Below are positions 1-24,931 of a stretch of 39,876 nucleotides of DNA, piece by piece (the stretch's first letter is position 1; each line of letters begins with the position of its first letter). The position numbers were made by a program, and so were the translations under genes. Where the stretch lies: the NCBI GenBank assembly GCA_041303845.1, contig JBFYOK010000128.1, positions 1 through 39,876 on the forward strand. The letters run 5' to 3'. The notes beneath the pieces are model-generated. The model had not been told where the DNA came from and ran no database searches. It saw only the letters and a program-made list of their open reading frames with translations. The stretch comes from Microbacteriaceae bacterium (lineage in GTDB: Bacteria; Actinomycetota; Actinomycetes; Actinomycetales; Microbacteriaceae).

Positions 1-450
1 GAGAAGACGAGCGAGAACGCGGATGGGGAAGTCAGCTGCGACATCGGCGAGGAAGTCGAACTCCTTCTTGGCAAAAGCGTTGTCGAGGGTCGTCGCGGTC
101 AGACCGCGAAGGAAGGTCTCGTATCGCGCGACGCTGTTGGGCGTGAACTCGTTCTGCAGCAGCCGACGGAGTGCGCGGTGGCGAAGCCCGTCCGAATCGA
201 TGAGGGAGCGGCGAGCCTCCTCTTGGTCCGAGTCAAGCTCTTCGAGGTTGGTGAAGTGGGTGCTTGTGAAGGTTTCTGGGTCTCGCAACACCTTGACGAT
301 GTCGTGGTACTTCATCATCGACCAGAAGCCGCTACCACCGTCAGTTTCGTCGCTCCAGTTGATGGGCGCGGTCTCGCGGAGTTCCGCAAAGAGATCCCAA
401 GGAGCGCCGTTGTCAAAAACATCGAGGTCGGCAAGTGAACGAGTTGCCAT
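1..450 (-). CDS. cytochrome P450, N-terminal 150 codons (gene continues past the window start)
   Basis: Absent from the ORF track because it runs off the window. The reverse complement translates from ATG (450..448) as MATRSLADLDVFDNGAPWDLFAELRETAPINWSDETDGGSGFWSMMKYHDIVKVLRDPETFTS...GLRHRALRRLLQNEFTP, a typical bacterial CYP N-terminus. A GAGGAG SD (rc of 458..463) lies 7 nt upstream. The + ORFs 23..493 and 178..438 are its antisense shadow. Confidence 0.85.
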   Translation of the reverse strand, partial: MATRSLADLDVFDNGAPWDLFAELRETAPINWSDETDGGSGFWSMMKYHDIVKVLRDPETFTSTHFTNLEELDSDQEEARRSLIDSDGLRHRALRRLLQNEFTPNSVARYETFLRGLTATTLDNAFAKKEFDFLADVAADFPIRVLARLL

Positions 451-466
451 TTTGTATCTCCTCATC

Positions 467-489
467 GAGATTGTTTGGATACGAACAAT
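467..489. promoter_or_regulatory. candidate operator in the P450/MarR divergent intergenic region
   Basis: Inverted repeat ATTGTT (470..475) / AACAAT (484..489). The 9-mer GAGATTGTT occurs twice, at 467..475 and 553..561, in an AT-rich spacer between divergent genes. Confidence 0.35.
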
Positions 490-569
490 ATAGACAATAA
501 TACGCGTGGCTCGTCGTGCTTCGTCAAGTCTGTCCCTCATAATCACGTCAGGGAGATTGTTGAGACGTA

Positions 570-1064
570 ATGACTGGTAGCCACACCCTCGCGGAGACAG
601 AAGCGCGCGTCGCGAACCGCCTGAGCCACATGGAACTCGACTTCGAGGCCATGGCGGTTGTCTCGAACCTCTTTCGTGCGGCCAGCGCCGTGCGCAATTA
701 CGTCGAGCGAAACGTGCTGCTTGAGAGTGGCCTCAGTTGGACCGCATTCGTCGTTCTGTGGGTCACGTGGATCTGGGAACCTGCCGAAACCCGGGAGATC
801 GCAGGTGAAGCCGGAATCTCGAAGGCCACGCTCACCGGCGTGCTCAGCACGCTCGAAAAGCGAGGACTCGCGCAACGTTCACGAAGCTCTGAAGATGGCC
901 GTCTCGTTTTGGTCACACTGACGCCCGCGGGCGAAGAACTCATGTCCGGTCTGTTCCCGAAGTTCAACCGTCAAGAAATAGAGATGGTGACGCCCGTCCC
1001 AGCCGGTCAGCGCGGTTCACTGGCCGACATGCTGCGTGCCATCACCGCAAAAATCGACGGCTAA
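570..1064 (+). CDS. MarR-family transcriptional regulator (possibly HpaR-like)
   Basis: 164 aa. Winged-helix region EIAGEAGISKATLTGVLSTLEKRGLAQRSRSSEDGRLVLVTLTPAGEE is a typical MarR signature. Divergent from the P450 gene. Confidence 0.85.
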   Translation: MTGSHTLAETEARVANRLSHMELDFEAMAVVSNLFRAASAVRNYVERNVLLESGLSWTAFVVLWVTWIWEPAETREIAGEAGISKATLTGVLSTLEKRGLAQRSRSSEDGRLVLVTLTPAGEELMSGLFPKFNRQEIEMVTPVPAGQRGSLADMLRAITAKIDG

Positions 1065-1926: not shown

Positions 1927-3390
1927 ATGAGCACGATTAGCGTTGCCGGTGCTGACATCGACACTCGCCACTTCATCGGTGGAGCGCGAGTGGCGTCAGC
2001 CGAGACCTACACGAACACGTCTCCCATCGACGGCACGTTCTTGGGCGAGATTTCGCGCGGAGGCGCTGTTGAAGTCGAACAAGCCGTCGCAGCTGCGCGC
2101 GCTGCCTTCCCGGCATGGGCTGCACTGGGGCCGCAGGGTCGTGGCGAACTTCTTCACAAACTTGCCGACCTCGTGGAAGAGAACAACGAAACGCTCTCTC
2201 AGCTCGAGACGATGGATAACGGATCGCTTCTGCGCTCTCACCGACGGGGCGTGATGCCTCGTGTGGCGATGAACATTCGATTCTTCGCAGACTGGGCAAT
2301 GAACGAGCTGCACCACGAACCGTTCGAGACACGTGGACACACCAACAACGTGAGCTGGGACCCGTCGGGAGTCGCGGCACTCATCACGCCCTGGAATGCA
2401 CCACTCATGTTGGCCACATGGAAGATTGGCCCGGCGCTCGCCGCGGGCGACACGGTCATCTTGAAGCCGGCCGAGTGGACGCCGCTCAGCGCATCCTTCT
2501 TTGCCGACTTGACCGTGAAGGCGGGAATCCCTGCGGGCGTTTTCAACGTCGTGCAGGGTTACGGAGCTGAGGCCGGTGCTGCACTGGTCGCGCATCCGGG
2601 TATCTCACGCATTTCATTCACCGGCTCCGTGCCGACGGCCAAGATCATTGCTCGCTCCGCTGCGGACAATCTCACACCGTGCTCGTTCGAGCTCGGTGGA
2701 AAGAGCCCGATGATTGTGCTGGGAGACGCCGATCTCGATATGGCTGCCGAAATCGCGGTCGAGCAGTATGACAACGCTGGCCAGGTTTGCCTGTCGGGTA
2801 CTCGCATTTTTGTGCATGAATCGGTTGCCGAGCAGTTCGCAGCAAAGTTTGCCGAGCGGGCGGCCAAGATCAAGCAGGGCGACCCACGCGATGAAGACAC
2901 CGACATCGGCCCGCAGATTCACCAGGTGCACTTTGATCGAATCAAAGGGTTCGTCGACCGCGCGGCAGCAGAGGGTCAGAGCATTGTCTGGGGTGGAAAG
3001 CCGAACGACGAACTCGGGGGTCTTTACTTCACACCAACTTTGGTGATGGAGCCGACCCCGGGATCAGAGGTTGTCAGCCAAGAGATCTTCGGGCCTGTGC
3101 TGACGATGATGACGTTCAGCACAGATGAAGAGGTCATCGAACGAGCAAACGGCACCGAGTTCGGCCTTGCCGCCGTTGTCGTCTCTGGCAACAAAGCTCA
3201 CGCGAAGAAGATTACGGATGTGCTCGTCGCAGGAACCATCTGGGTGAACTGCTTCTTCGTGCGCGACCTGCGTGCTCCGTTCGGTGGCTCGAAAAAGTCG
3301 GGCATCGGGCGCGACGGCGGCACGTGGTCATTTGATTTCTACGCCGATGTCAAGAACACCGTCGTATCTCCAAACGGATGGAAGGAATAG
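1927..3390 (+). CDS. hpaE: 5-carboxymethyl-2-hydroxymuconate semialdehyde dehydrogenase
   Basis: 487 aa aldehyde dehydrogenase. The C-terminus IWVNCFFVRDLRAPFGGSKKSGIGRDGGTWSFDFYADVKN closely matches my recollection of E. coli HpaE (FVRDLRHAFGGVKPSGTGREGGEYSFEVFAEMKN). ELGGKSP and GQVCLSG catalytic motifs are present. Confidence 0.85.
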   Translation: MSTISVAGADIDTRHFIGGARVASAETYTNTSPIDGTFLGEISRGGAVEVEQAVAAARAAFPAWAALGPQGRGELLHKLADLVEENNETLSQLETMDNGSLLRSHRRGVMPRVAMNIRFFADWAMNELHHEPFETRGHTNNVSWDPSGVAALITPWNAPLMLATWKIGPALAAGDTVILKPAEWTPLSASFFADLTVKAGIPAGVFNVVQGYGAEAGAALVAHPGISRISFTGSVPTAKIIARSAADNLTPCSFELGGKSPMIVLGDADLDMAAEIAVEQYDNAGQVCLSGTRIFVHESVAEQFAAKFAERAAKIKQGDPRDEDTDIGPQIHQVHFDRIKGFVDRAAAEGQSIVWGGKPNDELGGLYFTPTLVMEPTPGSEVVSQEIFGPVLTMMTFSTDEEVIERANGTEFGLAAVVVSGNKAHAKKITDVLVAGTIWVNCFFVRDLRAPFGGSKKSGIGRDGGTWSFDFYADVKNTVVSPNGWKE

Positions 3391-3392
3391 CA

Positions 3393-4298
3393 ATGGGTGA
3401 AGTTGTCGGAGCAGCACTGTTGGCGCACGTCCCAACAATCATGTTGCCCAAAGAGATTCGTTACGAACTCAACGAAGGCAAAGAGATTTCCCTCGTTCCG
3501 GGGCTTCACCGACTTCGCGAAGAGGTCATGGAAAAGCTCGACTACGACACCGTTGTCGTGCTCGACAGCCACTGGGCCACGACGGTCGAATTCGTCATCA
3601 CCTCGCATGATCACCGCGAGGGTTTCTACACCTCAGAAGAGTTGCCACGTGGCATGAGTGGCGTTCCCTATGCGTTCCGTGGCGATCGCGAGCTCGCAGA
3701 ATCCGTCGCGAAGTACGACGAGAAAAACGGCACTTGGATCACCCCCATCGACGACCCACACCTGCCGGTGTTCTACGCAACCATCAACCTTTGGGACTAC
3801 CTGGGTAAGGGACTCGACAAGCGTTGGGTCAGCATCTCTGTGTGCCAGACCGCAACCACGGAAGACTTCTTGCGTGCCGGCCGTGCACTCGGCGAAGCGA
3901 TTCGTGACAGCGACCGCAAGGTGCTGTTGCTCGCATCGGGCGCGCTGTCGCACACGTTCTACCCCTTGCGTGAATTGCGTTCACACGAGGCCAGCGATCC
4001 CAAGCACATCTTCTCACCAGAGGCCCGCGCCGCAGATGAAGAGCGCATCGAGTGGTTCAAGGCAGGCGATCACGCGCGCGTGCTCGAGACGATGCCGGAG
4101 TTCAAGAAGTACAAGCCCGAGGCGAACTTCTCGCACTACTTGACCATGATTGGCGCAATCGGCGAAGAGGCTGTGACGTCGAAGGGCGAGATGTACTCCG
4201 AGTACGAGAACTCGGTGGGCACCGGTCAGGTGCACATCTACTTCCCGAAGCCTGAAGGCGGCTTCCCTGCGCCGAAAGACGTGGTGCTCGCACGATGA
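3393..4298 (+). CDS. hpaD: 3,4-dihydroxyphenylacetate (homoprotocatechuate) 2,3-dioxygenase, LigB/class III extradiol type
   Basis: The ORF track starts at 3378. I prefer ATG 3393, preceded by GGAAGGA and lying just after the hpaE stop. DSHW, ASGALSH and SVGTGQVHIYFP match the HpaD/HpcB motifs DTHW, ASGSLSH and SSGTGQVN. Confidence 0.85.
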   Translation: MGEVVGAALLAHVPTIMLPKEIRYELNEGKEISLVPGLHRLREEVMEKLDYDTVVVLDSHWATTVEFVITSHDHREGFYTSEELPRGMSGVPYAFRGDRELAESVAKYDEKNGTWITPIDDPHLPVFYATINLWDYLGKGLDKRWVSISVCQTATTEDFLRAGRALGEAIRDSDRKVLLLASGALSHTFYPLRELRSHEASDPKHIFSPEARAADEERIEWFKAGDHARVLETMPEFKKYKPEANFSHYLTMIGAIGEEAVTSKGEMYSEYENSVGTGQVHIYFPKPEGGFPAPKDVVLAR

Positions 4299-5173
4299 CC
4301 GAATACCGCCGCATCCTGCTCGATGGCTACCCGGTGCAGGTCGTTCGCGAGGGAGAGACGCTCGTCGCGCCAGACGGGCGACGCATTGCGATTGAGGATG
4401 CGCAACACCTTGCCCCCGCGGAGCCGACGAAGATCATCGCTGTGCACCTGAACTACGACAGTCGCACGAAGGAGTTCATGACGAAACTCCCGTCTGCCCC
4501 GACGTACTTTCACAAGCCCATCACTGCCCTCAACTCGCACAAGGGCGCGATTGTTCGCCCGGCCGGTTGCAAGTGGCTCAACTACGAGGGTGAAATCGTC
4601 ATCGTGATTGGCAAGACCTGCCGCAACATTTCGCCAGCGGAAGCTGGCGAGTACATCGCCGGGTACACCGTCGGCAACGATTACGGACTGCACGATTTTC
4701 GCGACACGGATGCGGGTTCGATGTTGCGCGTCAAGGGCTCCGACACGCTCGCACCCGTCGGCCCCGGGCTGGTCACCGACTGGGACTTCACCAACAAGAT
4801 GATTCGCACATACGTGAACGGTGAAGTGAAGCAAGAAGACAACACCGACAACATGGAGTGGGACATGCACTACCTCGTTGCCGACATTGCGCGCACGATC
4901 ACCTTGGTTCCGGGAGACATGTTGTTCTCGGGCACGCCCGCTTTCTCGCGCCCAGTGTTCCCGGGCGACATCGTTGAGGTCGAAGTTGAAGGCCTCGGCC
5001 GCTTGACCAACCACATCGTCGAAGGCCCCACCCCGATTCGCACGGATGTTGGTGCCCAACCCACCGAAAGTGAAGAGGTCGTTTCGACGGCTCTCGGTGG
5101 AGACTGGGAGTTCCGAGGAATCCGTACTCCATCCAAAGATCTCTACCCATCGACCGTTGAGGAGAAAAACTAA
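4295..5173 (+). CDS. fumarylacetoacetate hydrolase (FAH) family isomerase/decarboxylase of the hpa pathway (HpaG-like, single domain)
   Basis: 292 aa. FAH motifs YEGEIVIVIG, NDYGLHD and KGSDTLAPVGP. ATGA start/stop overlap with hpaD at 4295..4298. Confidence 0.8.
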   Translation: MTEYRRILLDGYPVQVVREGETLVAPDGRRIAIEDAQHLAPAEPTKIIAVHLNYDSRTKEFMTKLPSAPTYFHKPITALNSHKGAIVRPAGCKWLNYEGEIVIVIGKTCRNISPAEAGEYIAGYTVGNDYGLHDFRDTDAGSMLRVKGSDTLAPVGPGLVTDWDFTNKMIRTYVNGEVKQEDNTDNMEWDMHYLVADIARTITLVPGDMLFSGTPAFSRPVFPGDIVEVEVEGLGRLTNHIVEGPTPIRTDVGAQPTESEEVVSTALGGDWEFRGIRTPSKDLYPSTVEEKN

Positions 5174-5364
5174 TGCTCAAGATTCATGTTGACATGAACA
5201 AGTGCCAGCACTACGGCCAGTGTGTCTTCGACGCTCCGAACGTGTTTCGTCTGAATGAGGATGACAAGCTCGAATACGAGCACACGGCTGACGACAGCGA
5301 ACGCGACAACATCCAGCTCGCCATCGACATCTGCCCGATGCAGGCCATTTCGTTCGTCGAGTAA
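5173..5364 (+). CDS. small [3Fe-4S]-type ferredoxin (P450 redox partner type)
   Basis: 63 aa. Cluster motif C-QH-Y-GQ-C ... C-P (CxxYxxC(x)nCP). TAATG stop/start overlap with the FAH gene at 5171..5175. Confidence 0.85.
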   Translation: MLKIHVDMNKCQHYGQCVFDAPNVFRLNEDDKLEYEHTADDSERDNIQLAIDICPMQAISFVE

Positions 5365-5385: not shown

Positions 5386-6612
5386 GTGTCAAACCCCGTC
5401 GTCATCGTCGGCGCTTCAATGGGTGGGCTGCGCGCAGCCGAAACCTTGAGGAAGAGCGGATACTCAGGGCCACTGGTCGTCATCGGTGACGAGCCTCACG
5501 CCCCGTACAACCGCCCGCCGCTGTCGAAGGAGGTTCTCGCCGAAGACGTCAGCCACGCTGCGGTGGCTTTCCCTCTCGCCGAGATACTCGATGACGTCCA
5601 ATGGGTGCTGGGGCGTGCTGTTGTCTCGACCGACCTTTCCGCGCAGAACGTGACCCTCGATGACGGCACCACGATTGACTACAGCTCGTTGATTATCGCG
5701 ACCGGGTTGCGTCCGCGCCGGCTCAACCTGCCCGGTCAGCCAACTCACGGTGTGCACGCGATTCGCACACTCGATGATGCAATGCGTCTGCGCAGCGAGC
5801 TCGTTCCCGGAGCTCGAGTTGTCGTATTCGGTGCGGGATTCATCGGATGCGAGACGGCCGCCACTGCCACAAAACTCGGCTGCCAGGTGACGGTTGTCGG
5901 CAAGGGAAGCATCCCCATGCTGCGACCACTCGGCCAGCAACTCGCCGAAGACGTTCAGCGTCGCAACGAAGACCGTGGCGTGACGTTCATTTCGAACGCA
6001 TGCCTCGTGCAGATTTTGTCCGATGAAGCGAGTGACCGCGTCACGGGCGTCGTGCTCGACAACGGACAGACGCTCGACTGCGATGTCGTGATTGAGGCGC
6101 TGGGTTCGTTGCCGAACACGGAATTTCTCGCCGGAAACGACATTGACATCGAATCCGGGGTTCACGTCAACGACACGTTGCACGCATTGCGGGAGAACGG
6201 AGAGGCGTGGGAGAACGTGTACGCAATCGGAGACGTCGCCCGATTCCCCATCCCACAGTTTGATTCTCAGACGCGTCGCGTTGAGCACTGGAACATCCCG
6301 ACCGAAATGGCCCGAAAGGTCGGCAAGCAGGTTGCGCTCGCGCACGGTGATGACGTGGATGCGCATCGAGATGAACTCGCAAAACCCTTCGCGCCCATCC
6401 CGAGCTTTTGGAGTGACCAGTTCGACGTGAGCCTTCTCGCCTATGGGTTGCTCGATCAGGGTGACGAAGTCAAGCTTCTCGAGGGTGACGTCGGCGCCGA
6501 CTGCATCTACGGCTATTTCAAGGGTGACGCCATGGTGGGTGTCTGCGGAATTGGTATGCGCTCAAAGGTGATGGGCTACCGCAACAAAGTTGGTCTCAAC
6601 TTCGCGCAGTAG
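5386..6612 (+). CDS. FAD-dependent NAD(P)H:ferredoxin reductase (putidaredoxin-reductase-like)
   Basis: 408 aa with a GTG start. N-terminal FAD fold VVIVGASMGGLRAAE, a second dinucleotide fold VVVFGAGFIGCE, and the YAIGDVA motif. Confidence 0.85.
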   Translation: MSNPVVIVGASMGGLRAAETLRKSGYSGPLVVIGDEPHAPYNRPPLSKEVLAEDVSHAAVAFPLAEILDDVQWVLGRAVVSTDLSAQNVTLDDGTTIDYSSLIIATGLRPRRLNLPGQPTHGVHAIRTLDDAMRLRSELVPGARVVVFGAGFIGCETAATATKLGCQVTVVGKGSIPMLRPLGQQLAEDVQRRNEDRGVTFISNACLVQILSDEASDRVTGVVLDNGQTLDCDVVIEALGSLPNTEFLAGNDIDIESGVHVNDTLHALRENGEAWENVYAIGDVARFPIPQFDSQTRRVEHWNIPTEMARKVGKQVALAHGDDVDAHRDELAKPFAPIPSFWSDQFDVSLLAYGLLDQGDEVKLLEGDVGADCIYGYFKGDAMVGVCGIGMRSKVMGYRNKVGLNFAQ

Positions 6613-6630
6613 CCCACCGGCCACGATCCT

Positions 6631-7434
6631 CTAGCTAACGAACAGCGGAACAAGCGCTCCTGAGAACACCTGCCACGCGAGCACGCTCTTGGCAACCAAG
6701 CTGAGCGTGATGTACATGCGCTCGCCGCGCAGGTAGTTTCGCCATCCGCCAACCTGGTGGTACTGCAGAGCCTGGTTGATGGCGAAGGTGTTGAAGAACA
6801 CGAACAGCGACACGATGATGCCGATGACGAATCCGGGGACCTCGGCAGCGTTCGTTGAACCGGGCTGCAGTGTGAGGATTGCGATGATGATCCAGGGGAC
6901 GATACCCGTCATCGAGCCGAAGATGAACGGCAGGAACTTCTTGTTTCCCGGTGTCTCGTACTTTTCTTGCAGTGCACCGAACATGATCATGGATGCGTTG
7001 ACCGCAAAGATTGCGAACAGCGCACCGACATCGGTCACGCCTGTGAGCTGGGCGATGAGCCAAATCATGACGGACGAACTGAGCGAGTACTCGGTCCAAC
7101 GGAAGTAGTTGTGGTTCTGCTTCAGACCAGCTGCATAGCGGTTGAAGACACCTGGCCACGAAATCAAGAAGTGGAAGAACGCCGACAAAAAGAGGAAGGC
7201 AACCACACCGAGTCCGAGGTTGACGTCGAACAACGTGACGCGTTCGACGGGGACGTCGACACCGGGAGGGCCGGTCATGTAGTCGACGGTTACGGGGAAT
7301 GCAACCTGAGTACTGAGCTTTGTCAGCACAAACAGGAATGCGGCACCCTGAATGAAGTGAATCGCACCAGCAACAATGTTGTAGACGCGAAGTCGTTTGA
7401 TTTGCTCGTCATCGGAGCGGATTTTGCGTGCCAT
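6631..7434 (-). CDS. heliorhodopsin (retinal-binding seven-helix photoreceptor)
   Basis: Near-collinear match, from memory, to heliorhodopsin 48C12: YNIVAGAIHFIQ, LSAFFHFLIS, FRWTEYSLSSSVMIWLIAQ, FAVNASMIMFGALQEKY, GIVPWI, VPGFVIGIIVSLFVFFN, NYLRGERMYITLSLVAKSVLAWQVFSG. The Schiff-base Lys codon is at 6688..6690. I chose the start at the internal Met (codon 7434..7432, MARKIRSDDEQIKRL). The ORF track extends 28 codons further, to 7518. Confidence 0.9.
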   Translation of the reverse strand: MARKIRSDDEQIKRLRVYNIVAGAIHFIQGAAFLFVLTKLSTQVAFPVTVDYMTGPPGVDVPVERVTLFDVNLGLGVVAFLFLSAFFHFLISWPGVFNRYAAGLKQNHNYFRWTEYSLSSSVMIWLIAQLTGVTDVGALFAIFAVNASMIMFGALQEKYETPGNKKFLPFIFGSMTGIVPWIIIAILTLQPGSTNAAEVPGFVIGIIVSLFVFFNTFAINQALQYHQVGGWRNYLRGERMYITLSLVAKSVLAWQVFSGALVPLFVS

Positions 7435-7479
7435 GGGGCATCTCTTTTCTGGCACCACAGTGTCGGTGCCCTTCTGGTT

Positions 7480-7508
7480 AGTTTGACTGAGCCACGGGGT
7501 ACCGTCAA
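7480..7508 (-). promoter_or_regulatory. candidate promoter for the heliorhodopsin gene
   Basis: On the minus strand, TTGACG (rc of 7503..7508), a 17-nt spacer, then CAAACT (rc of 7480..7485). The predicted 5' UTR contains the GGCACC/GGTGCC hairpin (7451..7470). The -10 match is weak. Confidence 0.25.
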
Positions 7509-7558
7509 TGACCGCCACACCCCAGCGCGCGGGTTCGCATAATGTGAGGAGTGACGAA

Positions 7559-7756
7559 ATGAAGAGTGAGGAACTCGCAATGTCAGAGTCTGTCTCAGGT
7601 AAATCACCCGCCGACGGCGAACGCCCCGCTGCATATCAGCGGACCGGCGCGCCCGGTAAGGGGTCGCCAGAATACGAGGCGATGGATCAGCTTGCAAAGC
7701 TCTTTGAGGCTCAGGTTGAGGAGCTCCGAGGGGACGAAGCGCCCAAGCAGCACTAG
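7559..7756 (+). CDS. hypothetical small hydrophilic protein (65 aa), divergent from heliorhodopsin
   Basis: ATG 7559 is preceded by GAGGAG at 7-nt spacing. The ORF track starts it at 7508. Sequence: MKSEELAMSESVSGKSPADGERPAAYQRTGAPGKGSPEYEAMDQLAKLFEAQVEELRGDEAPKQH. No family recognised. The C-terminal segment looks helical and amphipathic. Confidence 0.5.
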   Translation: MKSEELAMSESVSGKSPADGERPAAYQRTGAPGKGSPEYEAMDQLAKLFEAQVEELRGDEAPKQH

Positions 7757-7830
7757 GCCTGAACTGCTCGACGCACATCCTGTGCGAGTCGGTATTGTGA
7801 GAAAGGCCCAGATTTCACGAAGGAGTGGCA

Positions 7831-9201
7831 ATGAGCACGTACGTCGTAACTAATCCTGCAACTGGTGAAAAGAGCGCACCTTTCGCGCAAGCCACCGATG
7901 CAGACATCGCGAAGGCCGTCAGCCTCGCACACGAGACGCACCAGTCGTGGTCTAAGTCCACGAGTGTTTCCGAGCGTTCCGCTCTCATTGAGAAGGTTGC
8001 GGAACTGCACCGCGAACGACGCGAACACCTAGCCGAAATCATCGTGCGCGAGATGGGTAAGCCTCTCGCGCAGGCTCTCGGAGAGGTCGACTTCACCGCA
8101 GACATCTACTCGTTTTATGCGACCAACGGAGAGCGCTTTCTCGCCGATGAGCAGATTGCCGAGTTCGAAGGAGATGGAGAGGCGTTCATCCGCCGCTCAT
8201 CGCTCGGCGCGCTGCTCGGCATCATGCCGTGGAACTTCCCGTATTACCAGGTCGCACGATTTGCTGGCCCGAACCTCGTTCTCGGTAACACGATTCTGTT
8301 GAAGCACGCGTCACAGTGCCCGGAGTCTGCTGGAGCGATGGAGAAGATTTTCATCGACGCTGGCTTCCCAATCGGCGCGTACCAGAATCTTTACGCTGAC
8401 AGCAAGCAGATTGCGACGATTATCGCTGACCCACATGTTCAGGGCGTTTCGCTGACCGGGTCAGAGCGCGCTGGTGCGGCCGTCGCCGAACTTGCCGGCC
8501 GCCACTTGAAGAAGGTTGTTCTTGAGCTCGGTGGTTCCGACCCCTTTATCTTGCTCAGCACCGATGACATGGACTCGGCTGTCGAGTCTGCGGTTGCCGC
8601 TCGAAACGATAACAACGGCCAAGCGTGTAACGCCGGCAAGCGCTTCATCGTCATCGAGAGCCACTACGACGAATTCTTGGCCAAGTTCACGGCTGCACTG
8701 TTGGCTTCTGTTCCCGGTGACCCAATGGATGACGATACGTACCTCGGACCACTCTCGTCGGCCGGTGCCGCAGACGGACTGCAGGAGCAGGTCGATCGCG
8801 CGCTCTCGCAGGGAGCGACGGTTGCCGCCCGCGGTGACCGCAACGGAAACTACTTCTCGAGCGTCGTGCTGACTGGCATCACCTCGAAGATGGATGCGCA
8901 CCACGAGGAATTCTTCGGACCGGTTGCATTGGTGTACAAGGTGAAAGACGAGGCGGAAGCTGTGGCGCTCGCCAACGACACTCCATTCGGCCTCGGCTCG
9001 TACGTGTTCTCGACGGACAAGGCGCAGGTCATGCGTGTTGCCGACCAGATTGAAGCGGGCATGGTTTACGTGAACGGCGTCGGACTCGACAGTCCGGAAC
9101 TCCCGTTTGGTGGAGTCAAGCGTTCCGGTTTCGGACGCGAGCTCGGCCGCTTCGGCATCGAAGAGTTCGTCAACCGCAAGCTCATCCGCATTCTCAAGTA
9201 G
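7831..9201 (+). CDS. NAD(P)-dependent succinate-semialdehyde dehydrogenase (Sad/YneI-like aldehyde dehydrogenase)
   Basis: LGIMPWNFPYYQV, LLKHAS, LELGGSDPFI, NNGQACNAGKRF and GGVKRSGFGRELGRFGIEEF align with my recollection of E. coli Sad/YneI. I prefer ATG 7831, with AAGGAG 6 nt upstream, over GTG 7825. Confidence 0.8.
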   Translation: MSTYVVTNPATGEKSAPFAQATDADIAKAVSLAHETHQSWSKSTSVSERSALIEKVAELHRERREHLAEIIVREMGKPLAQALGEVDFTADIYSFYATNGERFLADEQIAEFEGDGEAFIRRSSLGALLGIMPWNFPYYQVARFAGPNLVLGNTILLKHASQCPESAGAMEKIFIDAGFPIGAYQNLYADSKQIATIIADPHVQGVSLTGSERAGAAVAELAGRHLKKVVLELGGSDPFILLSTDDMDSAVESAVAARNDNNGQACNAGKRFIVIESHYDEFLAKFTAALLASVPGDPMDDDTYLGPLSSAGAADGLQEQVDRALSQGATVAARGDRNGNYFSSVVLTGITSKMDAHHEEFFGPVALVYKVKDEAEAVALANDTPFGLGSYVFSTDKAQVMRVADQIEAGMVYVNGVGLDSPELPFGGVKRSGFGRELGRFGIEEFVNRKLIRILK

Positions 9202-9210
9202 TTCAGCGTG

Positions 9211-9244
9211 AATGGCCGTTGCCTCTCCCGAGGTGACGGCCATT
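9211..9244 (+). terminator. hairpin after the succinate-semialdehyde dehydrogenase gene
   Basis: AATGGCCGT (9211..9219) pairs with ACGGCCATT (9236..9244) around a 16-nt loop. It is followed by CCTCTTC, not a clean U-tract. Confidence 0.35.
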
Positions 9245-9266
9245 CCTCTTCAGAAGGAGCCCGATT

Positions 9267-10364
9267 GTGGCGTCACAGCTCTCAATGACAGATCAGGTCC
9301 AGGGGCGTTCGGAGTCTGTAGCGCTCATAGTTGGCGGAATCTCCGCCGTCTTCGGGCTCATCGCAGGCTTGGTGTTCTTGCGGATATCCCAGATGGCGCT
9401 CTTTGGCGAGGGCTCAGTTGGATACCTGGCTGCATGGTCGTGCACGATTGTCGGCATTCCCGCGTTCGCGTTTGGGTACCTTCGGTCAGCGAAGCTCGAC
9501 AAGGTTCGAAACGCGTGGCACAAGGAGCATCCTGTGCGTGCGGCCATCAACGCCACCGCACTGACGCTCACCGGAGCTTTCGTTACCTATTTGCTTGCGG
9601 CCGGGCTCTTCTACGTTTTTCAGGCAGCATTTTCCGGCATGTTGGTGCAGCGTTCATCGGGAGTAGTCATTGTCGCTGTGACGGCCGCGGTGGCCGGGTA
9701 CATGCTCTTTACGATTGCGAGCAATGTCACAACTGAGACAGTCTCAACTCTGCTGACACTTTTCTTATTCACCGGCGTGCTCGGCAGTATGTTGACCGCA
9801 CAAGATCCGCGATGGTGGCAAGTCAACTTCAGCTTCTTGGGCTCGGGACTAGGAGACCCGCTCTCGGCAATGGCATTCAACATCACGATCACGCTGTCTG
9901 GAGTGGTGCTGACGACGATGGCGGATTACCTCACGCGAGATCTCTACGAGATTGTCGCTCTGAGCGGAATCGATCGCCCAGCCCGACGCGTCAACGTGAT
10001 TCGCGCTCTCATGATGGTGATCGGTGTGGCATTCATGTTCGTCGGCCTTTTCCCGGTCGACAAGTTGCTCATCATGCACAACATCGGCGCCCAGGGGCTC
10101 TTCATCGGCTTCGGACTTCTCGTCATTTCCGTGCCGATTCTCACCAAGGTGTTTTCTCGGAGTTTTCAGATCACGTCCGTAATCTTCTTCGTGCTCACGC
10201 TATGGTCCGTGCTGCTCTTCAAACCGTTTGGGTATTACAACCTCACCGGACTTGAAATCATTGCTATCGCGCTGGTTTTCGTGTGGCTCATTCTCTTCGT
10301 GCGCACCACGGCAGCGGTCAAGCAGGATGTTCGACGCGAGGAAGCGCAGGAGCTCGGCCTCTAG
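9267..10364 (+). CDS. polytopic integral membrane protein, unknown function
   Basis: 365 aa. GTG start with GAAGGAG 7 nt upstream. About 10 hydrophobic segments. No family recognised. Confidence 0.65.
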   Translation: MASQLSMTDQVQGRSESVALIVGGISAVFGLIAGLVFLRISQMALFGEGSVGYLAAWSCTIVGIPAFAFGYLRSAKLDKVRNAWHKEHPVRAAINATALTLTGAFVTYLLAAGLFYVFQAAFSGMLVQRSSGVVIVAVTAAVAGYMLFTIASNVTTETVSTLLTLFLFTGVLGSMLTAQDPRWWQVNFSFLGSGLGDPLSAMAFNITITLSGVVLTTMADYLTRDLYEIVALSGIDRPARRVNVIRALMMVIGVAFMFVGLFPVDKLLIMHNIGAQGLFIGFGLLVISVPILTKVFSRSFQITSVIFFVLTLWSVLLFKPFGYYNLTGLEIIAIALVFVWLILFVRTTAAVKQDVRREEAQELGL

Positions 10365-10924
10365 TCCGGAGCGCCGACTGGAGTGTTCATCGCAGCCCAC
10401 GCCCACGCCGTTGCGTCTTCGGCAGGCGGCAGGGGGTCCATGTTGATCCACTCGCGCAGAATGCCGATGAATGAACCGGCCAGGCTCGCAGCCTGAACAT
10501 TGACGGGGACTGAACTGGCCGACGGAACGCCCGGTTGAGAGAGTCCATATGTCGCAAGCTGGATGATGCGGTCCGAAAGCCTGGCCACAATGAGGGGCGA
10601 CCCGGTCGAGCTCAACACTGTTTGGTACAGGGACGCGTTCTCCTGGACATGCGCGAAGTATCTCGTGATGAGGGCGCGAGGATCTGACTCGCCCATCGCC
10701 TCGATATCGGCCTCAAGCTGCGACTGTGCCTGCTCGGCAAATCGGTCCAATGCGTCCGCCAAGAGGGTCTCTTTGTCGGCATAGTGCTGGTAAAACGTGC
10801 TTCGATTCACTCCAGCGGCGTCAGCAATCATGGAGACGGACAGCGCCGGGAAGCCTTCGGTACGACACAGTTCGAGAAGGGCATCCTGCAGGCTTTGCTG
10901 TGTTCGCGCAATCCGGGGATCCAT
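10361..10924 (-). CDS. TetR/AcrR-family transcriptional regulator
   Basis: 187 aa. N-terminal HTH FPALSVSMIADAAGVNRSTFYQHYADKETLL. Divergent from the MMPL gene. Its stop overlaps the convergent membrane-protein stop (CTAG). Confidence 0.9.
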   Translation of the reverse strand: MDPRIARTQQSLQDALLELCRTEGFPALSVSMIADAAGVNRSTFYQHYADKETLLADALDRFAEQAQSQLEADIEAMGESDPRALITRYFAHVQENASLYQTVLSSTGSPLIVARLSDRIIQLATYGLSQPGVPSASSVPVNVQAASLAGSFIGILREWINMDPLPPAEDATAWAWAAMNTPVGAPD

Positions 10925-10977
10925 TCAATCGCTTTCTGTGAAAAAGGTGTTAAACACGTGGGCCAGATTGTTGTAAC

Positions 10978-11007
10978 CGACACCTGTCCTTTATCCTACA
11001 AGTGTCG
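10978..11007. promoter_or_regulatory. candidate TetR operator
   Basis: CGACACCTGT (10978..10987) and ACAAGTGTCG (10998..11007) form a 10-bp inverted repeat with one mismatch and a 10-nt spacer. It lies in the TetR/MMPL divergent intergenic region. Confidence 0.45.
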
Positions 11008-11071
11008 TTTTTCTCCTGCTGGCCATTCCGATGATGCAATTTCCGGCAAATCACTGTCAAAGGAATGCACC

Positions 11072-13789
11072 ATGGCCTCATTGCTCTACCGTCTCGGTCA
11101 ATTTTCTGCCCGCCGCGCGTGGCTCGTACTTGTCACGTGGCTTCTCGTTTTGGTTGCCGCAGCTGCTGCGGCCTTCGGACTCGGGGGAACGTTCTCGTCA
11201 TCGATGACGCTCAATGGGACCCCGTCTCAAAGCGTGATTGATCAACTCACGGAGTCATTTCCCGACGCGTCACGAGGAAGTGCGCAGTTTGTCTTTCACA
11301 AGTCAGACGGCACAGCTTTCACAGACGCAGAGCGCGAAGCCATCGACGTCGCGTTGACAAAGACGGCCGCCCTCGAGGGAGTGGATGGTGTCATCAACCC
11401 GTTCTCGGCTCAAGCGGCTAAGGACGAAAAAATCGCGGAGCTGGTTGACGCGCAACAAAAAATCGATGCGGCACCGAAGCAACTAGCCGACGGACAGGCT
11501 GCGATTGATTCAGGCTGGGCCAAGATTGCCGAGGCAGAAAATCAACTCGCGAGCGGCCAGGCCCAGATCGCCTCGGGACTCAAGCAAGTTGCAGACACGC
11601 GGCCATCCCTCGAATCGAATAAGTCGCAGCTTCAGTCGGCGATCGCTCAGGCAACCTCGAATGGCGCACCGCAGTCTCAGATTGACCAGCTCACGGGTCA
11701 GTTGCAGCAGGTCACGTCTGGGCTTGAACAGCTCGATGAGTCCGCTGCGGCACTCGCCAGTGCTCGGGTCGCGAGTCTCGCGGGTCAGGCAGAGATTGCG
11801 GACAACAAGCAGGCCTTGACGGATGCGCAGACGGAGCTCGACATCGCTCGCGCTGATCTTCCTGGTCAAATTCAAAAAGTCACATGGGGCCAGGAACTTC
11901 TCGCAGCCGCGGACAAGTACCGCGCTGTTTCCGTCGATTCGCAGACGGCACTCGGTGGCGTGTATTTCACCACACCCTTGTCGGACGTTTCCTCCGAGAC
12001 CAAAGACGCAGTCATCGACTCGTTGTCGAAGCTCGGTCTGACGAATGTCGAAGTTGAATTCTCTAAGGAACTCGCCACGTCACTCGGAAGCATTGTTGGT
12101 CCCGGCGAGATCGTCGGACTCGTCATCGCCGGAGTCGTGCTGTTCATCATGCTCAGCACTCTCATCGCCGCCGGTCTGCCCGTCCTCACAGCACTTTTAG
12201 GTGTTGCGATTAGTGCGCTGGGAGCTTTCGCACTCTCATCGGTCATCGAAATGAACTCAACGACGCCCACGCTGGCGGTCATGCTTGGACTTGCCGTGGG
12301 CATCGACTACTCCCTGTTCGTTCTCAATCGCCACCGCCGCCAACTCAAAGCTGGCGTGCCGGTGCAGGAATCGATTGCCTTGGCCAACGGAACGTCGGGA
12401 AGTGCCGTGCTCTTCGCCGGGCTGACCGTGATTATCGCGCTCCTAGCGCTCAACCTCACGGGCATCGGATTCCTTGGCCTTATGGGAAGCATCGGAGCCA
12501 TTGCCATTGCAATCTCGGTCATCGCGGCGTTGACATTTACGCCTGCCCTGATGAAGTTTGCAGGGCTAAAGGTGCTCAGTCGAAAGGAACGCGCCCGCCT
12601 CGACCTGGACAAGACAGGATCGATTCCCGTCGTGTCCGAAAAGGCCGCCACCAAGGCAAACCGCGAAGTTTGGGCGGCGAAGCGACCTGTTTGGGCACTC
12701 GTCATCACAGTTGGAGTGCTACTCGTAACCGCGATTCCCTTTGCCTCGATGCGTCTGGGCCTCTCCGACGGATTCTCTGAGCCCGTTGAATCGACCCAGT
12801 ATCGCGCCTATGAGCTCACCAGCGAAGGCTTTGGTGCGGGACAGAACGGCCAGATTACCGCGGCCGTCTCGTTTGATCAGCCTCTGGTCGGTGATGACGT
12901 GCTCGCCACGCAAGCCGACATCGCCTCAACGCTGATGGCTGTTGAGAATGTTGAGGCCGTCGTTGCCGGATCTCCATCTCCTGACTCAAAAACCCTGGTC
13001 TTCTCTGTTGTGCCGAGTGAAGGACCGGCGACGGTGTCTACGGAGCAGGTCGTCTACGACTTGCGCGCAAAATCTGGCGCAGTCGAAGCAACTACGGGCG
13101 GAGAACTCGGAATAACGGGCCTTGCCGCGGTCAACATTGACATTTCGAAGAAGCTCGCGGATGCACTTCCTCTTTATCTCGGAACCGTTCTCGCACTGAG
13201 TGTGCTCTTGATGATTCTCGTATTCCGGTCAATCGCCGTCCCCCTTGTTGCGAGTGCCGGGTTCTTGCTTTCGGTTTTGGCCGCACTCGGCGCCGTGACC
13301 GCGGTCTACCAATGGGGCTGGTTGGGCTCTGTATTCGGGGTGCACAACCCTGGACCAATCATGAACTTCTTGCCGACAATCCTGATCGGAGTTCTGTTCG
13401 GCTTGGCCATGGACTACCAGCTCTTTATCGCCACGGGAATCCGTGAGGCATACGTGCACGGCGATTCGGCGCGAGTCGCTATCACGCGGGGCGTTCACGC
13501 CGGGCGCGCGGTCGTCATCGCTGCCGCCATCATCATGATTGCTGTCTTCGGCAGCTTCGCCTTCGCCGAGTCAACAATGATTCGACCGATGGGATTTGGC
13601 CTCGCATTCGGAGTCCTTGTGGATGCCTTCCTCGTTCGACTTCTGCTTATTCCGGCAGTGCTTCGACTGCTGGGTAAGGGCGCCTGGTGGTTGCCATCCT
13701 GGCTAGATCGCGTCCTTCCGAATGTCGACGTGGAGGGATCCTCCCTCGAACGCGGGCAACGCAAGCAGGAGGTTGTGCTCGTCGCCTAG
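11072..13789 (+). CDS. MMPL/RND-superfamily membrane transporter with a long coiled-coil insertion in the first extracytoplasmic domain
   Basis: The real start is probably ATG 11072 (MASLLYRLGQFSARRAWLVLVTW...). The ORF-track start 10784 overlaps the TetR gene. There are two blocks of about 6 TM segments with typical MMPL motifs (GLAVGIDYSLFVLNRHR, GLAMDYQLFIATGIRE). A Q/A-rich heptad-like region spans roughly 11400..11900. Confidence 0.85.
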   Translation: MASLLYRLGQFSARRAWLVLVTWLLVLVAAAAAAFGLGGTFSSSMTLNGTPSQSVIDQLTESFPDASRGSAQFVFHKSDGTAFTDAEREAIDVALTKTAALEGVDGVINPFSAQAAKDEKIAELVDAQQKIDAAPKQLADGQAAIDSGWAKIAEAENQLASGQAQIASGLKQVADTRPSLESNKSQLQSAIAQATSNGAPQSQIDQLTGQLQQVTSGLEQLDESAAALASARVASLAGQAEIADNKQALTDAQTELDIARADLPGQIQKVTWGQELLAAADKYRAVSVDSQTALGGVYFTTPLSDVSSETKDAVIDSLSKLGLTNVEVEFSKELATSLGSIVGPGEIVGLVIAGVVLFIMLSTLIAAGLPVLTALLGVAISALGAFALSSVIEMNSTTPTLAVMLGLAVGIDYSLFVLNRHRRQLKAGVPVQESIALANGTSGSAVLFAGLTVIIALLALNLTGIGFLGLMGSIGAIAIAISVIAALTFTPALMKFAGLKVLSRKERARLDLDKTGSIPVVSEKAATKANREVWAAKRPVWALVITVGVLLVTAIPFASMRLGLSDGFSEPVESTQYRAYELTSEGFGAGQNGQITAAVSFDQPLVGDDVLATQADIASTLMAVENVEAVVAGSPSPDSKTLVFSVVPSEGPATVSTEQVVYDLRAKSGAVEATTGGELGITGLAAVNIDISKKLADALPLYLGTVLALSVLLMILVFRSIAVPLVASAGFLLSVLAALGAVTAVYQWGWLGSVFGVHNPGPIMNFLPTILIGVLFGLAMDYQLFIATGIREAYVHGDSARVAITRGVHAGRAVVIAAAIIMIAVFGSFAFAESTMIRPMGFGLAFGVLVDAFLVRLLLIPAVLRLLGKGAWWLPSWLDRVLPNVDVEGSSLERGQRKQEVVLVA

Positions 13790-19683: not shown

Positions 19684-20670
19684 ATGAACAAGGTTCTGAC
19701 GTCGGTCACTGATGAGGGCTTCGACGCAAAGACAGGATTCCTTCGCAACGTGCGCTGGCGTTCCTTGGCAATCGTGCTCCCGTTCTTGGTGGTGTTCATT
19801 GCTGTCTCAATCGGAAGCCCGTCGTTCCTGACGCCAATCAACTTGCTGAACATCCTCGACCAGCAGTCATCGATTTTGATTATTGCGGCCGCGGGAACAA
19901 TCGTCCTGATCACCGGTGGCATCGACCTATCGGTTGGCGCAACCTACGGACTCGCCGCGGTTGTCTCCGGAACGGTCGCCTTGACGAATGGCCCCGCACT
20001 TGGCCTCATTGCGGGCCTCGTAGTTGGAGGCATTGTTGGTCTCGTGAATGGCGTTGTGAGCACGATATTGAAAATCAATGCCTTGATTGCGACCCTCGCG
20101 ATGTCGTTCATTGCTCTCGGCGTCGCCTCGCTGGTAACCGGCGGAAACCTCATCGTTCTTTTTGAACACCCTGAGTTCGGAGCGATTGCCAAGACGAAGA
20201 TTCTTGGTGTTCAGTCGTCTATCTGGATCATGATTCTCGTCGTTGTCATTCTTGGCCTCGTGCTTGCCCGAACCACTCTCGGTCGCTACTGGTATGCGGC
20301 TGGTGGTAACGCTGAGGCAGCTCGACTCGTGGGTATCCAGGTGTCGTGGGTTCGTATCCTCGCGTTCGTCTTGAGCGGTGTGGCCGCAGGTCTCGGTGGC
20401 GTGATTGACACGTCGCGCGTCCTGAGTTCTCAGGCCAGCCCGGGAACCGCTCTGACTTTCACCGTGCTCGCGGGCATCGTGGTTGGTGGCACATCGATTC
20501 TCGGCGGCGAAGGCGCCATCTGGCGCACCGTCGTTGGCGTGCTCTTCATCGCACTCATCGGTAACGGCTTCAATTTGATGGGTGTGGATGCCCTGTTCCA
20601 GCAGATCACGCTGGGGCTCATCCTGCTTATCGCCGTCGGTATCGACGCCTGGTCACGACAGCGGCGTTAG
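19684..20670 (+). CDS. ABC transporter permease (ribose/xylose-type, about 10 TM)
   Basis: 328 aa with an AAAGGAA SD. Typical motif IDLSVGATYGLAAV. Confidence 0.85.
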   Translation: MNKVLTSVTDEGFDAKTGFLRNVRWRSLAIVLPFLVVFIAVSIGSPSFLTPINLLNILDQQSSILIIAAAGTIVLITGGIDLSVGATYGLAAVVSGTVALTNGPALGLIAGLVVGGIVGLVNGVVSTILKINALIATLAMSFIALGVASLVTGGNLIVLFEHPEFGAIAKTKILGVQSSIWIMILVVVILGLVLARTTLGRYWYAAGGNAEAARLVGIQVSWVRILAFVLSGVAAGLGGVIDTSRVLSSQASPGTALTFTVLAGIVVGGTSILGGEGAIWRTVVGVLFIALIGNGFNLMGVDALFQQITLGLILLIAVGIDAWSRQRR

Positions 20671-21278: not shown

Positions 21279-21321
21279 GACCGTCGAGTCTCCTTAGCTT
21301 TTTGCCTCGCCCCCTAGTTTA

Positions 21322-21331
21322 GGTTGCAACC
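21322..21331. promoter_or_regulatory. perfect 10-bp palindrome GGTTGCAACC upstream of the XRE-cupin regulator gene
   Basis: Self-complementary decamer 44 nt upstream of the regulator start codon, within a 216-bp divergent intergenic region. Confidence 0.35.
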
Positions 21332-23441: not shown

Positions 23442-23476
23442 TTTCGTAACTGAGCGGCGACGGGTACAGTTCATCT

Positions 23477-24919: not shown

Positions 24920-24931
24920 CCCAGCTCCTGT

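What the first reader, a model, noticed from the sequence alone, without database searches (positions are those of the whole stretch)
6631..7518. Photoactive-looking heliorhodopsin embedded inside an aromatic-catabolism / succinate-semialdehyde locus
The protein is collinear with heliorhodopsin 48C12 as I recall it. It keeps the Schiff-base Lys (SLVAKS, codon 6688..6690), the TM3 Glu counterion (RWTEYSLSSS) and both conserved His residues (AIHFIQ, FFHFLIS). Heliorhodopsin function is still largely unresolved. To my recollection, only a few species-specific partner proteins have been proposed, for example glutamine synthetase and photolyase. Here the gene is convergent with the ferredoxin reductase that ends the hpa/P450 operon. 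It is divergent from a small ORF followed by succinate-semialdehyde dehydrogenase, the enzyme that consumes the end product of that pathway. No carotenoid or retinal biosynthesis gene (crtEBIY, blh) is in the window. A light input into this redox and catabolic module is a testable idea, but it is inference only.
Basis: partly seen in the sequence, partly recalled or inferred. Interest (0 to 1): 0.7.

Follow-up and report, generated by a model that had tools for sequence, protein, structure and literature searches.

The report
Ordinary heliorhodopsin relocated beside catabolic genes
The gene is a textbook heliorhodopsin (a retinal-binding light sensor) of a freshwater Microbacteriaceae bacterium, but its position next to aromatic-breakdown and succinate-semialdehyde genes is a recent, lineage-specific relocation, not a conserved partnership, so the finding is ordinary.

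Summary
Window 6631..7434 (-) encodes a 267-aa heliorhodopsin (Pfam PF18761 E=5.6e-96; NCBIfam HeR equivalog 346 bits against a cutoff of 100). It is 56% identical to 48C12. Of the 21 functional 48C12 residues I checked, 20 are identical, including Lys249, Glu115, His26 and His88. dN/dS is about 0.09.

I examined 80 species-representative genomes whose HeR is at least 69% identical. Only the two closest share the FdR / small-ORF / SSADH neighbours, and the 63 loci with both neighbours called show 45 different flanking pairs. Sister lineages with HeR 88-89% identical carry the gene about 14 kb away in window terms, and DNA homology stops at the CDS ends.

In more distant relatives the small ORF is the last gene of a co-directional hpaE-hpaD-hpaG-fdx-fdr-adh-smallORF operon with no HeR in it. 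In this lineage HeR therefore sits antisense in the slot of the alcohol dehydrogenase, as a derived insertion or replacement. It is transcribed alone (convergent and divergent neighbours). Its sequence shows no lineage-specific substitutions.

Verdict: a known kind of gene in an incidental context. Low interest.

The parts
6631..7434 (-). Heliorhodopsin CDS, 267 aa, ATG at 7434, stop codon 6631..6633
   Evidence: Pfam PF18761 E=5.6e-96. NCBIfam HeR equivalog 346 bits. 48C12 structure 6su3 E=1e-81. Homologues are 266-269 aa. dN/dS 0.089 against L083.
6688..6690 (-). Codon of Lys249, the retinal Schiff-base lysine (Lys241 of 48C12)
   Evidence: Pairwise alignment to 48C12.
7090..7092 (-). Codon of Glu115, the Schiff-base counterion (Glu107 of 48C12)
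7357..7359 (-). Codon of His26 (His23 of 48C12)
7171..7173 (-). Codon of His88 (His80 of 48C12)
6613..6630 (.). 18-bp spacer between the convergent stop codons of the ferredoxin reductase and HeR. No terminator hairpin fits here.
7435..7558 (.). 124-bp divergent intergenic region between HeR and the small ORF. It is poorly conserved, about 61-70% nt identity to L001.
   Evidence: No sigma-70-type consensus found.
7559..7756 (+). Small ORF of 65 aa (an alternative ATG lies at 7580). A real, conserved protein of unknown function. It belongs to the hpa-fdx-fdr operon family, not to HeR.
   Evidence: Frame and residues conserved with synonymous changes. 56 clusters of 50-65 aa. It is the terminal gene of hpaE-D-G-fdx-fdr-adh operons that lack HeR. 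No Pfam or NCBIfam hit.
7825..9201 (+). Aldehyde dehydrogenase, succinate-semialdehyde-dehydrogenase-like, below the equivalog cutoff
   Evidence: Pfam Aldedh E=7.8e-130. NCBIfam PRK09406 473 bits against a cutoff of 730.
9210..9245 (+). Hairpin (16-nt arms, 4-nt loop) just after the aldehyde dehydrogenase stop. Probable end of the smallORF-ALDH unit.
   Evidence: Inverted repeat I7.
5386..6612 (+). Ferredoxin--NAD(P)+ reductase, convergent with HeR
   Evidence: Pfam Pyr_redox_2 and Reductase_C. NCBIfam HcaD/AndAa-like, below cutoffs.
5173..5364 (+). Small single-cluster ferredoxin
   Evidence: Pfam Fer4_13 and Fer4_15.
1927..5173 (+). hpaE-like aldehyde dehydrogenase (1927..3390), LigB/HpaD-like extradiol dioxygenase (3378..4298) and HpaG-like FAA-hydrolase-family enzyme (4295..5173)
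   Evidence: All score below the NCBIfam equivalog cutoffs.
1..450 (-). 5' part of a cytochrome P450 gene running off the left end of the window, divergent from MarR (570..1064)
   Evidence: Minus-strand translation. A full P450 sits at the same place in L081.

Best explanation
The gene encodes a canonical, selectively maintained heliorhodopsin of a freshwater Microbacteriaceae bacterium related to Aurantimicrobium. By homology it should work as 48C12 does. It is a seven-helix protein with its N-terminus in the cytoplasm. All-trans retinal is bound as a protonated Schiff base to Lys249, with Glu115 as the single counterion. After light absorption the Schiff-base proton is taken up inside the protein by the Glu115/His88/His26 water cluster and is not released. 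The result is a long-lived signalling state that acts through the cytoplasmic loops on a partner protein, with no ion pumping. The gene is a transcription unit of its own. Its place between the ferredoxin reductase and the small ORF comes from a lineage-specific relocation. HeR now sits antisense in the slot that a Zn-alcohol dehydrogenase occupies in the ancestral hpaE-hpaD-hpaG-fdx-fdr-adh-smallORF operon. The adjacency therefore carries no evidence of functional coupling. Any partner, and the retinal supply, are encoded elsewhere in the genome or, for retinal, taken up through the conserved lateral fenestration. Shown here: family membership, residue conservation, purifying selection, the stand-alone gene arrangement, non-conservation of the neighbours, and the existence of the same operon without HeR. 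Inferred: the photochemistry, the sensor role, and the absence of coupling.
For: Family and residues. 20 of 21 functional 48C12 positions are identical (N16, H23, Q26, S76, H80, Y92, R104, E107, Y108, S111, E149, E230, S237, K241, W246, plus fenestration residues F162, G169, F206, N207, A210); C166 is Ser (residue lists from PMC9726877 and bioRxiv 10.1101/2025.11.27.691015). K+R count is 15 on the predicted cytoplasmic segments against 2 on the outer ones. dN/dS is 0.089. Neighbourhood: only L001 and L005 of 80 genomes share the FdR/smallORF/SSADH flanks. There are 45 distinct flanking pairs in 63 loci. In L002-L004 (HeR 88-89% identical) HeR lies between DUF554/ALDH and an XRE-cupin regulator, equivalent to window positions about 21.3-24.9 kb. 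DNA homology to the window is confined to the CDS. L084-L090 carry hpaD-hpaG-fdx-fdr-adh-smallORF co-directionally with no HeR. No residue is fixed in the window lineage and absent from the 18 sister HeRs. Literature: 61% of HeR genes stand alone in their operon, and FdR and ALDH are not among the ten recurrent operon partners (PMC11109279).
Against: The FdR<-HeR->smallORF-SSADH arrangement has been kept in at least six contigs of this lineage, across about 20% nucleotide divergence. All experimentally established HeR partners (glutamine synthetase, photolyase, ABC transporter) were found because they were encoded next to HeR. The 18-bp convergent spacer without a terminator leaves room for transcriptional interference with fdr. 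No experiment or expression data exist for this organism. The rest of its genome could not be searched.
Confidence: 0.8

Rival explanations
1. In this lineage HeR gives a light input to the neighbouring redox and catabolic module, by binding and modulating the ferredoxin reductase/P450 system or the SSADH-like dehydrogenase, as AbHeR does with glutamine synthetase.
For: The arrangement is stable within the lineage. Known HeR partners are encoded next to HeR (PMC9529153, PMC9769723, PMC11109279). An oxidative-stress link has been proposed for HeRs (PMC8612252).
Against: HeR is not co-transcribed with either neighbour; they are convergent and divergent. The adjacency occurs in only 2 of 80 related genomes. 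The same operon exists without HeR. HeR shows no lineage-specific substitutions. FdR and ALDH are not among the recurrent HeR operon partners.
Confidence: 0.07
2. HeR and the divergently transcribed 65-aa protein form a new sensor-transducer pair that shares the 124-bp control region.
For: In the window, L001 and L005 and in all four contexts of close small-ORF homologues looked up (71-98% identical), HeR lies directly opposite it. The small protein is under purifying selection and has no known family.
Against: More distant members of the same small-protein family are the last gene of hpa-fdx-fdr-adh operons with no HeR within the 3.8-10 kb retrieved (about 2.5-5 kb each side of the small ORF). 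The other 78 HeR loci have no such ORF. The shared intergenic region is the least conserved stretch of the locus.
Confidence: 0.03
3. HeR works here as a light-harvesting or ion-translocating protein, with retinal plus an exogenous xanthophyll antenna, rather than as a regulator.
For: All residues of the proposed carotenoid-binding fenestration are kept: F170, S174, G177, F214, N215, A218 (bioRxiv 10.1101/2025.11.27.691015). Some viral HeRs transport protons (PMC9448325).
Against: The protein is 56% identical to 48C12, for which the cited literature reports no proton release to the bulk (PMC9726877). Transport is so far confined to viral HeRs that lack the fenestration motif.
Confidence: 0.05
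4. The gene makes an apoprotein that is never photoactive, because the organism lacks retinal.
For: No crt or blh gene lies in the 40-kb window.
Against: Strong purifying selection, dN/dS 0.089. The related Aurantimicrobium minutum lacks known retinal genes yet contains retinal and functional rhodopsin (PMC7734400). Carotenoid synthesis is functional in A. photophilum (PMC11577799). A 40-kb window is a small part of a genome.
Confidence: 0.03

Closest known systems
Heliorhodopsin 48C12 (freshwater actinobacterial fosmid; PDB 6SU3, 6UH3)
   Same: 56% identity over 249 residues with a collinear alignment. Lys, Glu, both His, the Ser76/Ser111/Ser237 trio, the Arg104-Glu149-Glu230 cluster, Trp246 and the fenestration residues are all identical.
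   Different: There is a 4-residue insertion in TM1 and a 1-residue insertion in the first outer loop. C166 is Ser. Not characterised experimentally.
Heliorhodopsins of Aurantimicrobium, Rhodoluna and other Luna-type Microbacteriaceae (e.g. AURMO_01564 of A. photophilum)
   Same: 69-90% identical and the same length. HeR is present in 57-96% of Luna-1 genomes depending on group (PMC12422013). Transcript levels rise in the dark in A. photophilum (PMC8591293).
   Different: The genomic position differs. Those genes sit beside GH13 glucosidase, DoxX-like, MMPL, TerC, M23 peptidase and other genes, not beside fdr or SSADH.
HeR-partner operons (AbHeR-glutamine synthetase, TfHeR-photolyase, OcHeR-OmrDE ABC transporter)
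   Same: The same protein family, and a plausible regulatory mode of action through cytoplasmic loops (PMC9529153, PMC9769723, PMC11109279).
   Different: In those systems the partner is co-transcribed with HeR. Here HeR is monocistronic, and none of the ten recurrent partner families is adjacent.
Homoprotocatechuate (hpa) meta-cleavage operons with ferredoxin and ferredoxin reductase
   Same: The flanking genes are hpaE-, hpaD- and hpaG-like, followed by fdx and fdr. The pathway's end product, succinic semialdehyde, would be a substrate of an SSADH (established pathway knowledge).
   Different: All members score below the equivalog cutoffs. No hpaH, hpaI or hpaBC is in the window. Relatives have adh plus the small ORF after fdr, and no HeR.

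Membership tests
Heliorhodopsin (PF18761 / NCBIfam NF038020) | Full-length match to the family profile above the curated cutoff | tested here: met
   Pfam 321 bits against a cutoff of 26.7, profile positions 1-242 of 242. NCBIfam equivalog 346 bits against a cutoff of 100.
Heliorhodopsin (PF18761 / NCBIfam NF038020) | Schiff-base lysine in helix 7 (K241 of 48C12) | tested here: met
   Lys249, codon 6688..6690.
Heliorhodopsin (PF18761 / NCBIfam NF038020) | Single glutamate counterion in helix 3 (E107), plus His23 and His80 | tested here: met
   Glu115, His26, His88.
Heliorhodopsin (PF18761 / NCBIfam NF038020) | Inverted topology, with the N-terminus cytoplasmic | tested here: inconclusive
   The positive-inside rule gives K+R of 15 on the N-terminus and even loops against 2 on the odd loops and C-terminus. 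This is consistent but indirect, and no experiment exists.
Heliorhodopsin (PF18761 / NCBIfam NF038020) | Binds all-trans retinal, has a slow photocycle and does not pump ions | not testable with these tools
   Needs expression and spectroscopy.
Type-1 microbial rhodopsins (PF01036) | Match to the bacteriorhodopsin-like profile | tested here: not met
   Only PF18761 was reported at E<=0.001.
HeR-partner regulatory operons (Cho et al. 2024 groups) | Partner gene co-transcribed with HeR from one promoter | tested here: not met
   Both neighbours are on the opposite strand: convergent with an 18-bp gap and divergent with a 124-bp gap.
HeR-partner regulatory operons (Cho et al. 2024 groups) | The adjacent gene belongs to a recurrent partner family (GS, NAD+ synthetase, photolyase, MerR, TerC, ABC transporter, SDR, alpha/beta hydrolase, DUF2177, DUF2238) | tested here: not met
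   The adjacent genes are FdR, an unclassified small ORF and an ALDH. The SDR and ABC transporter genes of the window lie 7-10 kb away.
   2 of 80 genomes, both from the same lineage. The operon is present without HeR in L084-L090.

The most novel reading that the evidence does not exclude
When HeR was inserted antisense into the hpa-fdx-fdr-(adh)-smallORF operon, it may have created a lineage-specific light-dependent control of that module. This could act by protein-protein contact with the ferredoxin reductase, the SSADH-like enzyme or the 65-aa protein. It could also act by convergent-transcription interference across the 18-bp, terminator-less spacer. If so, it would be a newly evolved HeR output caught at an early stage.
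Probability: 0.06. Interest if true: 0.55.

Novelty: already known. Interest (0 to 1): 0.13.

Why it matters
As it stands, little. Heliorhodopsins of this clade are abundant and already annotated by an NCBI equivalog model: 6,297 database proteins score at E<=1e-30, and one is 99% identical. The useful result is negative. This locus should not be used as evidence for a heliorhodopsin link to aromatic catabolism or succinate-semialdehyde metabolism. Among close relatives the gene moves as a single-gene unit between many contexts, which argues that neighbourhood-based partner prediction for HeRs needs recurrence across independent lineages. The side observation of a recurrent, probably co-transcribed HeR-DoxX pair in other Microbacteriaceae is a better lead for that open question.

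Tried and rejected
- Exact-sequence look-up of the 267-aa product found nothing. Gene callers in the collection use the 295-aa GTG start (P0001).
- The sigma-70 promoter scan of 6300..8000 found nothing, and the terminator-like hits were weak or lay inside coding sequence. This is uninformative for an actinobacterium.
- I looked for mobile-element signs around HeR. There were no meaningful direct or inverted repeats, no nearby tRNA, no Rfam element and no GC anomaly. The mechanism of relocation stays unknown.
- The 145-aa 'truncated' HeR in L081 looked like a pseudogene but is a 100-N scaffold gap.
- The 99-100% protein identity of HpaG and Fdx to L001 suggested a recent transfer. I rejected this because nucleotide identity there is only 85-92%, which fits strong purifying selection.
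- I asked whether HeR next to an ALDH is a recurring theme, since L004 has a different ALDH paralogue divergent from HeR. ALDH-family genes appear within four genes of HeR in only 6 loci and in different positions, and the window alone carries three ALDHs. I treat this as chance.
- I tested for lineage-specific substitutions in HeR that might mark a new partner. There were none.
- I considered that the small ORF might be non-coding or a relic. I rejected this because the frame is conserved, synonymous changes are present and 56 homologue clusters exist.

Full report
**1. The observation**

The minus strand carries an ORF at 6631..7518. The translation from the ATG at 7434 gives 267 aa. It matches the whole Pfam heliorhodopsin model (PF18761, E=5.6e-96, profile positions 1-242 of 242). 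It also matches the NCBIfam equivalog 'heliorhodopsin HeR' at 346 bits against a cutoff of 100. Against solved structures the best hits are 48C12 (6su3 at E=1e-81, and 6uh3), an entry named only 'Heliorhodopsin' (9ljj), and the TaHeR structures 6is6 and 7clj (E about 1e-54).

Homologues in the 5.8-billion-protein collection are almost all 266-269 aa and cover 98-100% of the 267-aa version, most of them 99-100%. The GTG at 7518 is therefore only the mechanical ORF limit, although some gene callers use it (P0001, 295 aa).

A pairwise alignment with 48C12 gives 56% identity over 249 residues.

I also mapped the residues discussed for 48C12 in PMC9726877: Asn16, Gln26, Ser76, Tyr92, Arg104, Tyr108, Ser111, Glu149, Glu230, Ser237 and Trp246. 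I did the same for the lateral fenestration / carotenoid-site residues from bioRxiv 10.1101/2025.11.27.691015: F162, C166, G169, F206, N207 and A210. Of the 21 positions, 20 are identical, and C166 is Ser.

Basic residues are distributed 15 to 2 in favour of the N-terminus and the even-numbered loops. This is what the inverted, N-terminus-inside topology of the family predicts. Against the orthologue in L083 the gene has dN=0.069 and dS=0.77, a ratio of 0.089, so it is under strong purifying selection.

**2. The surroundings**

- *Downstream of HeR, convergent.* These genes are an hpaE-like aldehyde dehydrogenase (1927..3390), a LigB/HpaD-like dioxygenase (3378..4298), an HpaG-like FAA-hydrolase-family enzyme (4295..5173), a small ferredoxin (5173..5364) and a ferredoxin reductase (5386..6612). 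The reductase stop codon lies 18 bp from the HeR stop codon. All the hpa assignments fall below the NCBIfam equivalog cutoffs.
It is not in the same transcription unit as the reductase.
- *Upstream of HeR, divergent.* After a 124-bp gap come a 65-aa ORF (7559..7756), an SSADH-like aldehyde dehydrogenase (7825..9201; best NCBIfam hit 473 bits against a cutoff of 730) and a hairpin at 9210..9245.
- *Rest of the window.* I scanned about 37 larger ORFs with Pfam. None is a carotenoid, retinal or photoreceptor gene, though several had no family at all. There is no Rfam element apart from a tRNA-Trp at 37.7 kb.
- *Transcription.* HeR is flanked on both sides by genes of the opposite strand, so it is a transcription unit of its own.

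**3. Is the neighbourhood conserved?**

The genome-collection scan returned 80 species-representative loci with HeRs 69-90% identical. All are freshwater or marine Microbacteriaceae: Aurantimicrobium, Rhodoluna, Aquiluna, Pontimonas, Cryobacterium, Leucobacter and unnamed MAGs.

- *tblastn of the window's proteins against these loci.* FdR, the small ORF and the SSADH lie beside HeR in only two loci, L001 and L005.
- *Clustering of all neighbouring ORFs.* There are 45 different left/right neighbour pairs among the 63 loci where both neighbours were called.
- *The equally close HeRs of L002, L003 and L004 (88-89% identical).* These lie between DUF554 or an ALDH paralogue and an XRE-cupin regulator. 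Orthologues of those genes are in the window at about 20.7-25.7 kb, so in window terms HeR has moved by about 14 kb. Nucleotide homology between the window and these loci starts and stops at the HeR coding sequence. With L001 and L005 it runs through both flanks.
- *More distant relatives.* These tend to have HeR near orthologues of window genes at 24-37 kb (PLP-decarboxylase, agmatine-deiminase-family, Zn-ADH, DUF554, aminotransferase). This suggests that region was the older home of the gene.

**4. The small ORF settles the direction of the change**

The small ORF is a real gene. Its frame and a core of about 45 residues are conserved with many synonymous differences. A single-sequence search found 10 clusters, and a profile search found 56 clusters of 50-65 aa. 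An exhaustive search of 1.84 billion representatives found only five hits. No Pfam or NCBIfam family matches it.

In the close homologues the context is the window's own, HeR<- ->smallORF-ALDH (L081, L082, L083 and a JGI contig). The apparent HeR truncation in L081 is a 100-N scaffold gap.

In the more distant homologues the small ORF is the last gene of a co-directional operon, hpaE-hpaD-hpaG-fdx-fdr-(Zn-ADH)-smallORF. These are L084/L085, L086, L087/L088 and L089/L090, with HpaG 89-92%, Fdx 85-94% and FdR 66-77% identical to the window's. Three different sets of genes follow the small ORF, and there is no HeR anywhere in the 3.8-10 kb retrieved for each locus.

So the ancestral unit is hpa-fdx-fdr-adh-smallORF. 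In the window lineage HeR lies antisense where the alcohol dehydrogenase used to be. SSADH is not a conserved follower of that operon either. HeR is a late arrival in the catabolic locus.

**5. Signs of a new partnership?**

I compared the five HeRs that sit in the window-type context with 18 sister HeRs in other contexts. No position is fixed in the former and absent from the latter. The intergenic region shared with the small ORF is the least conserved part of the locus, 61-70% nucleotide identity to L001 against 76-92% in the genes. I found no repeats, tRNA or composition shift that would explain how the gene moved.

**6. Comparison with what is known**

HeRs are widespread in these bacteria, present in 57-96% of Luna-1 genomes depending on group (PMC12422013). 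The A. photophilum gene is expressed, and its transcript rises in the dark together with the carotenoid genes (PMC8591293).

Cho et al. 2024 analysed 448 HeR genes. They found that 61% stand alone in their operon. [quoted passage not shown] None of these is adjacent here (PMC11109279). Bulzu et al. 2021 linked HeRs to histidine kinases, oxidative-stress genes and nitrogen or sugar metabolism, not to aromatic catabolism (PMC8612252).

The absence of retinal genes from a 40-kb window says little. A. minutum lacks all known retinal genes yet contains retinal and a working rhodopsin (PMC7734400). crtB is functional in A. photophilum (PMC11577799).

**7. Verdict**

The gene is an ordinary, intact member of a well-described family. 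It most likely acts as a stand-alone retinal photosensor or regulator with a slow photocycle, and its partner is not identifiable from this locus. The proposed light input into the hpa/P450/SSADH module is not excluded in principle. I give it about 6-7%. Novelty: already known. Interest: low.

Noticed in passing
L039, L046, L047, L049, L050, L053, L054, L055, L058, L060, L061, L076 (gene starts 4-25 bp after the HeR stop, e.g. L053:6577-6990); L069 and L071 (divergent, 269-277 bp upstream): In other Microbacteriaceae (Rhodoluna, the MWH-Ta3 group, Pontimonas) HeR is paired with a 134-144-aa DoxX-family membrane protein (Pfam DoxX 25.7 bits against a cutoff of 23.6). The pairing appears in at least three different flanking contexts and in two orientations. 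It is the most recurrent, probably co-transcribed HeR neighbour in this set. The window does not have it. No paper in the searchable library mentions heliorhodopsin together with DoxX.
   Followed up: partly
window 7559..7756; L084:5001-5168, L086:5001-5174, L089:2855-3028: A family of 50-65-aa proteins without any Pfam or NCBIfam match. The invariant core is Y..(T/S).APG.GS.EY.AMD..AK.FE.QV. It is conserved as the terminal gene of hpaE-hpaD-hpaG-fdx-fdr-adh operons in freshwater Microbacteriaceae. There are 56 clusters in 5.8 billion proteins. Its function is unknown.
   Followed up: partly
protein P0132 (246 aa, from the representative library): One homologue carries the small-ORF core at the N-terminus of a sequence that looks to me like a class I (Fe-S) fumarate hydratase; this assignment is from my reading of the sequence, not a profile search. 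It could be a fusion or a miscalled read-through. Its context could not be looked up.
   Followed up: partly
window 1..450 (-): The 5' part of a cytochrome P450 gene runs off the left edge, divergent from MarR (570..1064). The mechanical ORF list shows only a spurious plus-strand ORF (23..493) there.
   Followed up: yes
window 20667..25714 compared with L002:9108-11490 and L004:2447-6400: At the site where the sister lineages carry HeR, between the XRE-cupin regulator and DUF554 or an ALDH, the window has a Castor/Pollux-type channel protein (21495..23441) and an ALDH (23477..24919). In A. minutum MWH-Bo1 (L014) a Castor homologue lies about 2 kb from HeR. This region is rearranged repeatedly.
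   Followed up: partly
L081:7349-7452: A 100-N scaffold gap inside the HeR gene of MAG GCA_964651425.1 makes the gene caller report a 145-aa 'truncated' heliorhodopsin. This is an assembly artefact, not a pseudogene.
   Followed up: yes
window 10784..13789 (+) and 10361..10924 (-): The 1001-aa MMPL ORF from the first GTG overlaps the TetR gene by 140 bp. The orthologue in L083 is called at 861 aa, so the true start is probably further downstream.
   Followed up: no
window 4295..5364 compared with L001:3310-4376: HpaG and the ferredoxin are 99-100% identical in protein to those of L001, while HeR, FdR and the ALDH are 88-91%. Nucleotide identity there is only 85-92%, so this reflects very strong purifying selection rather than recent transfer.
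   Followed up: yes
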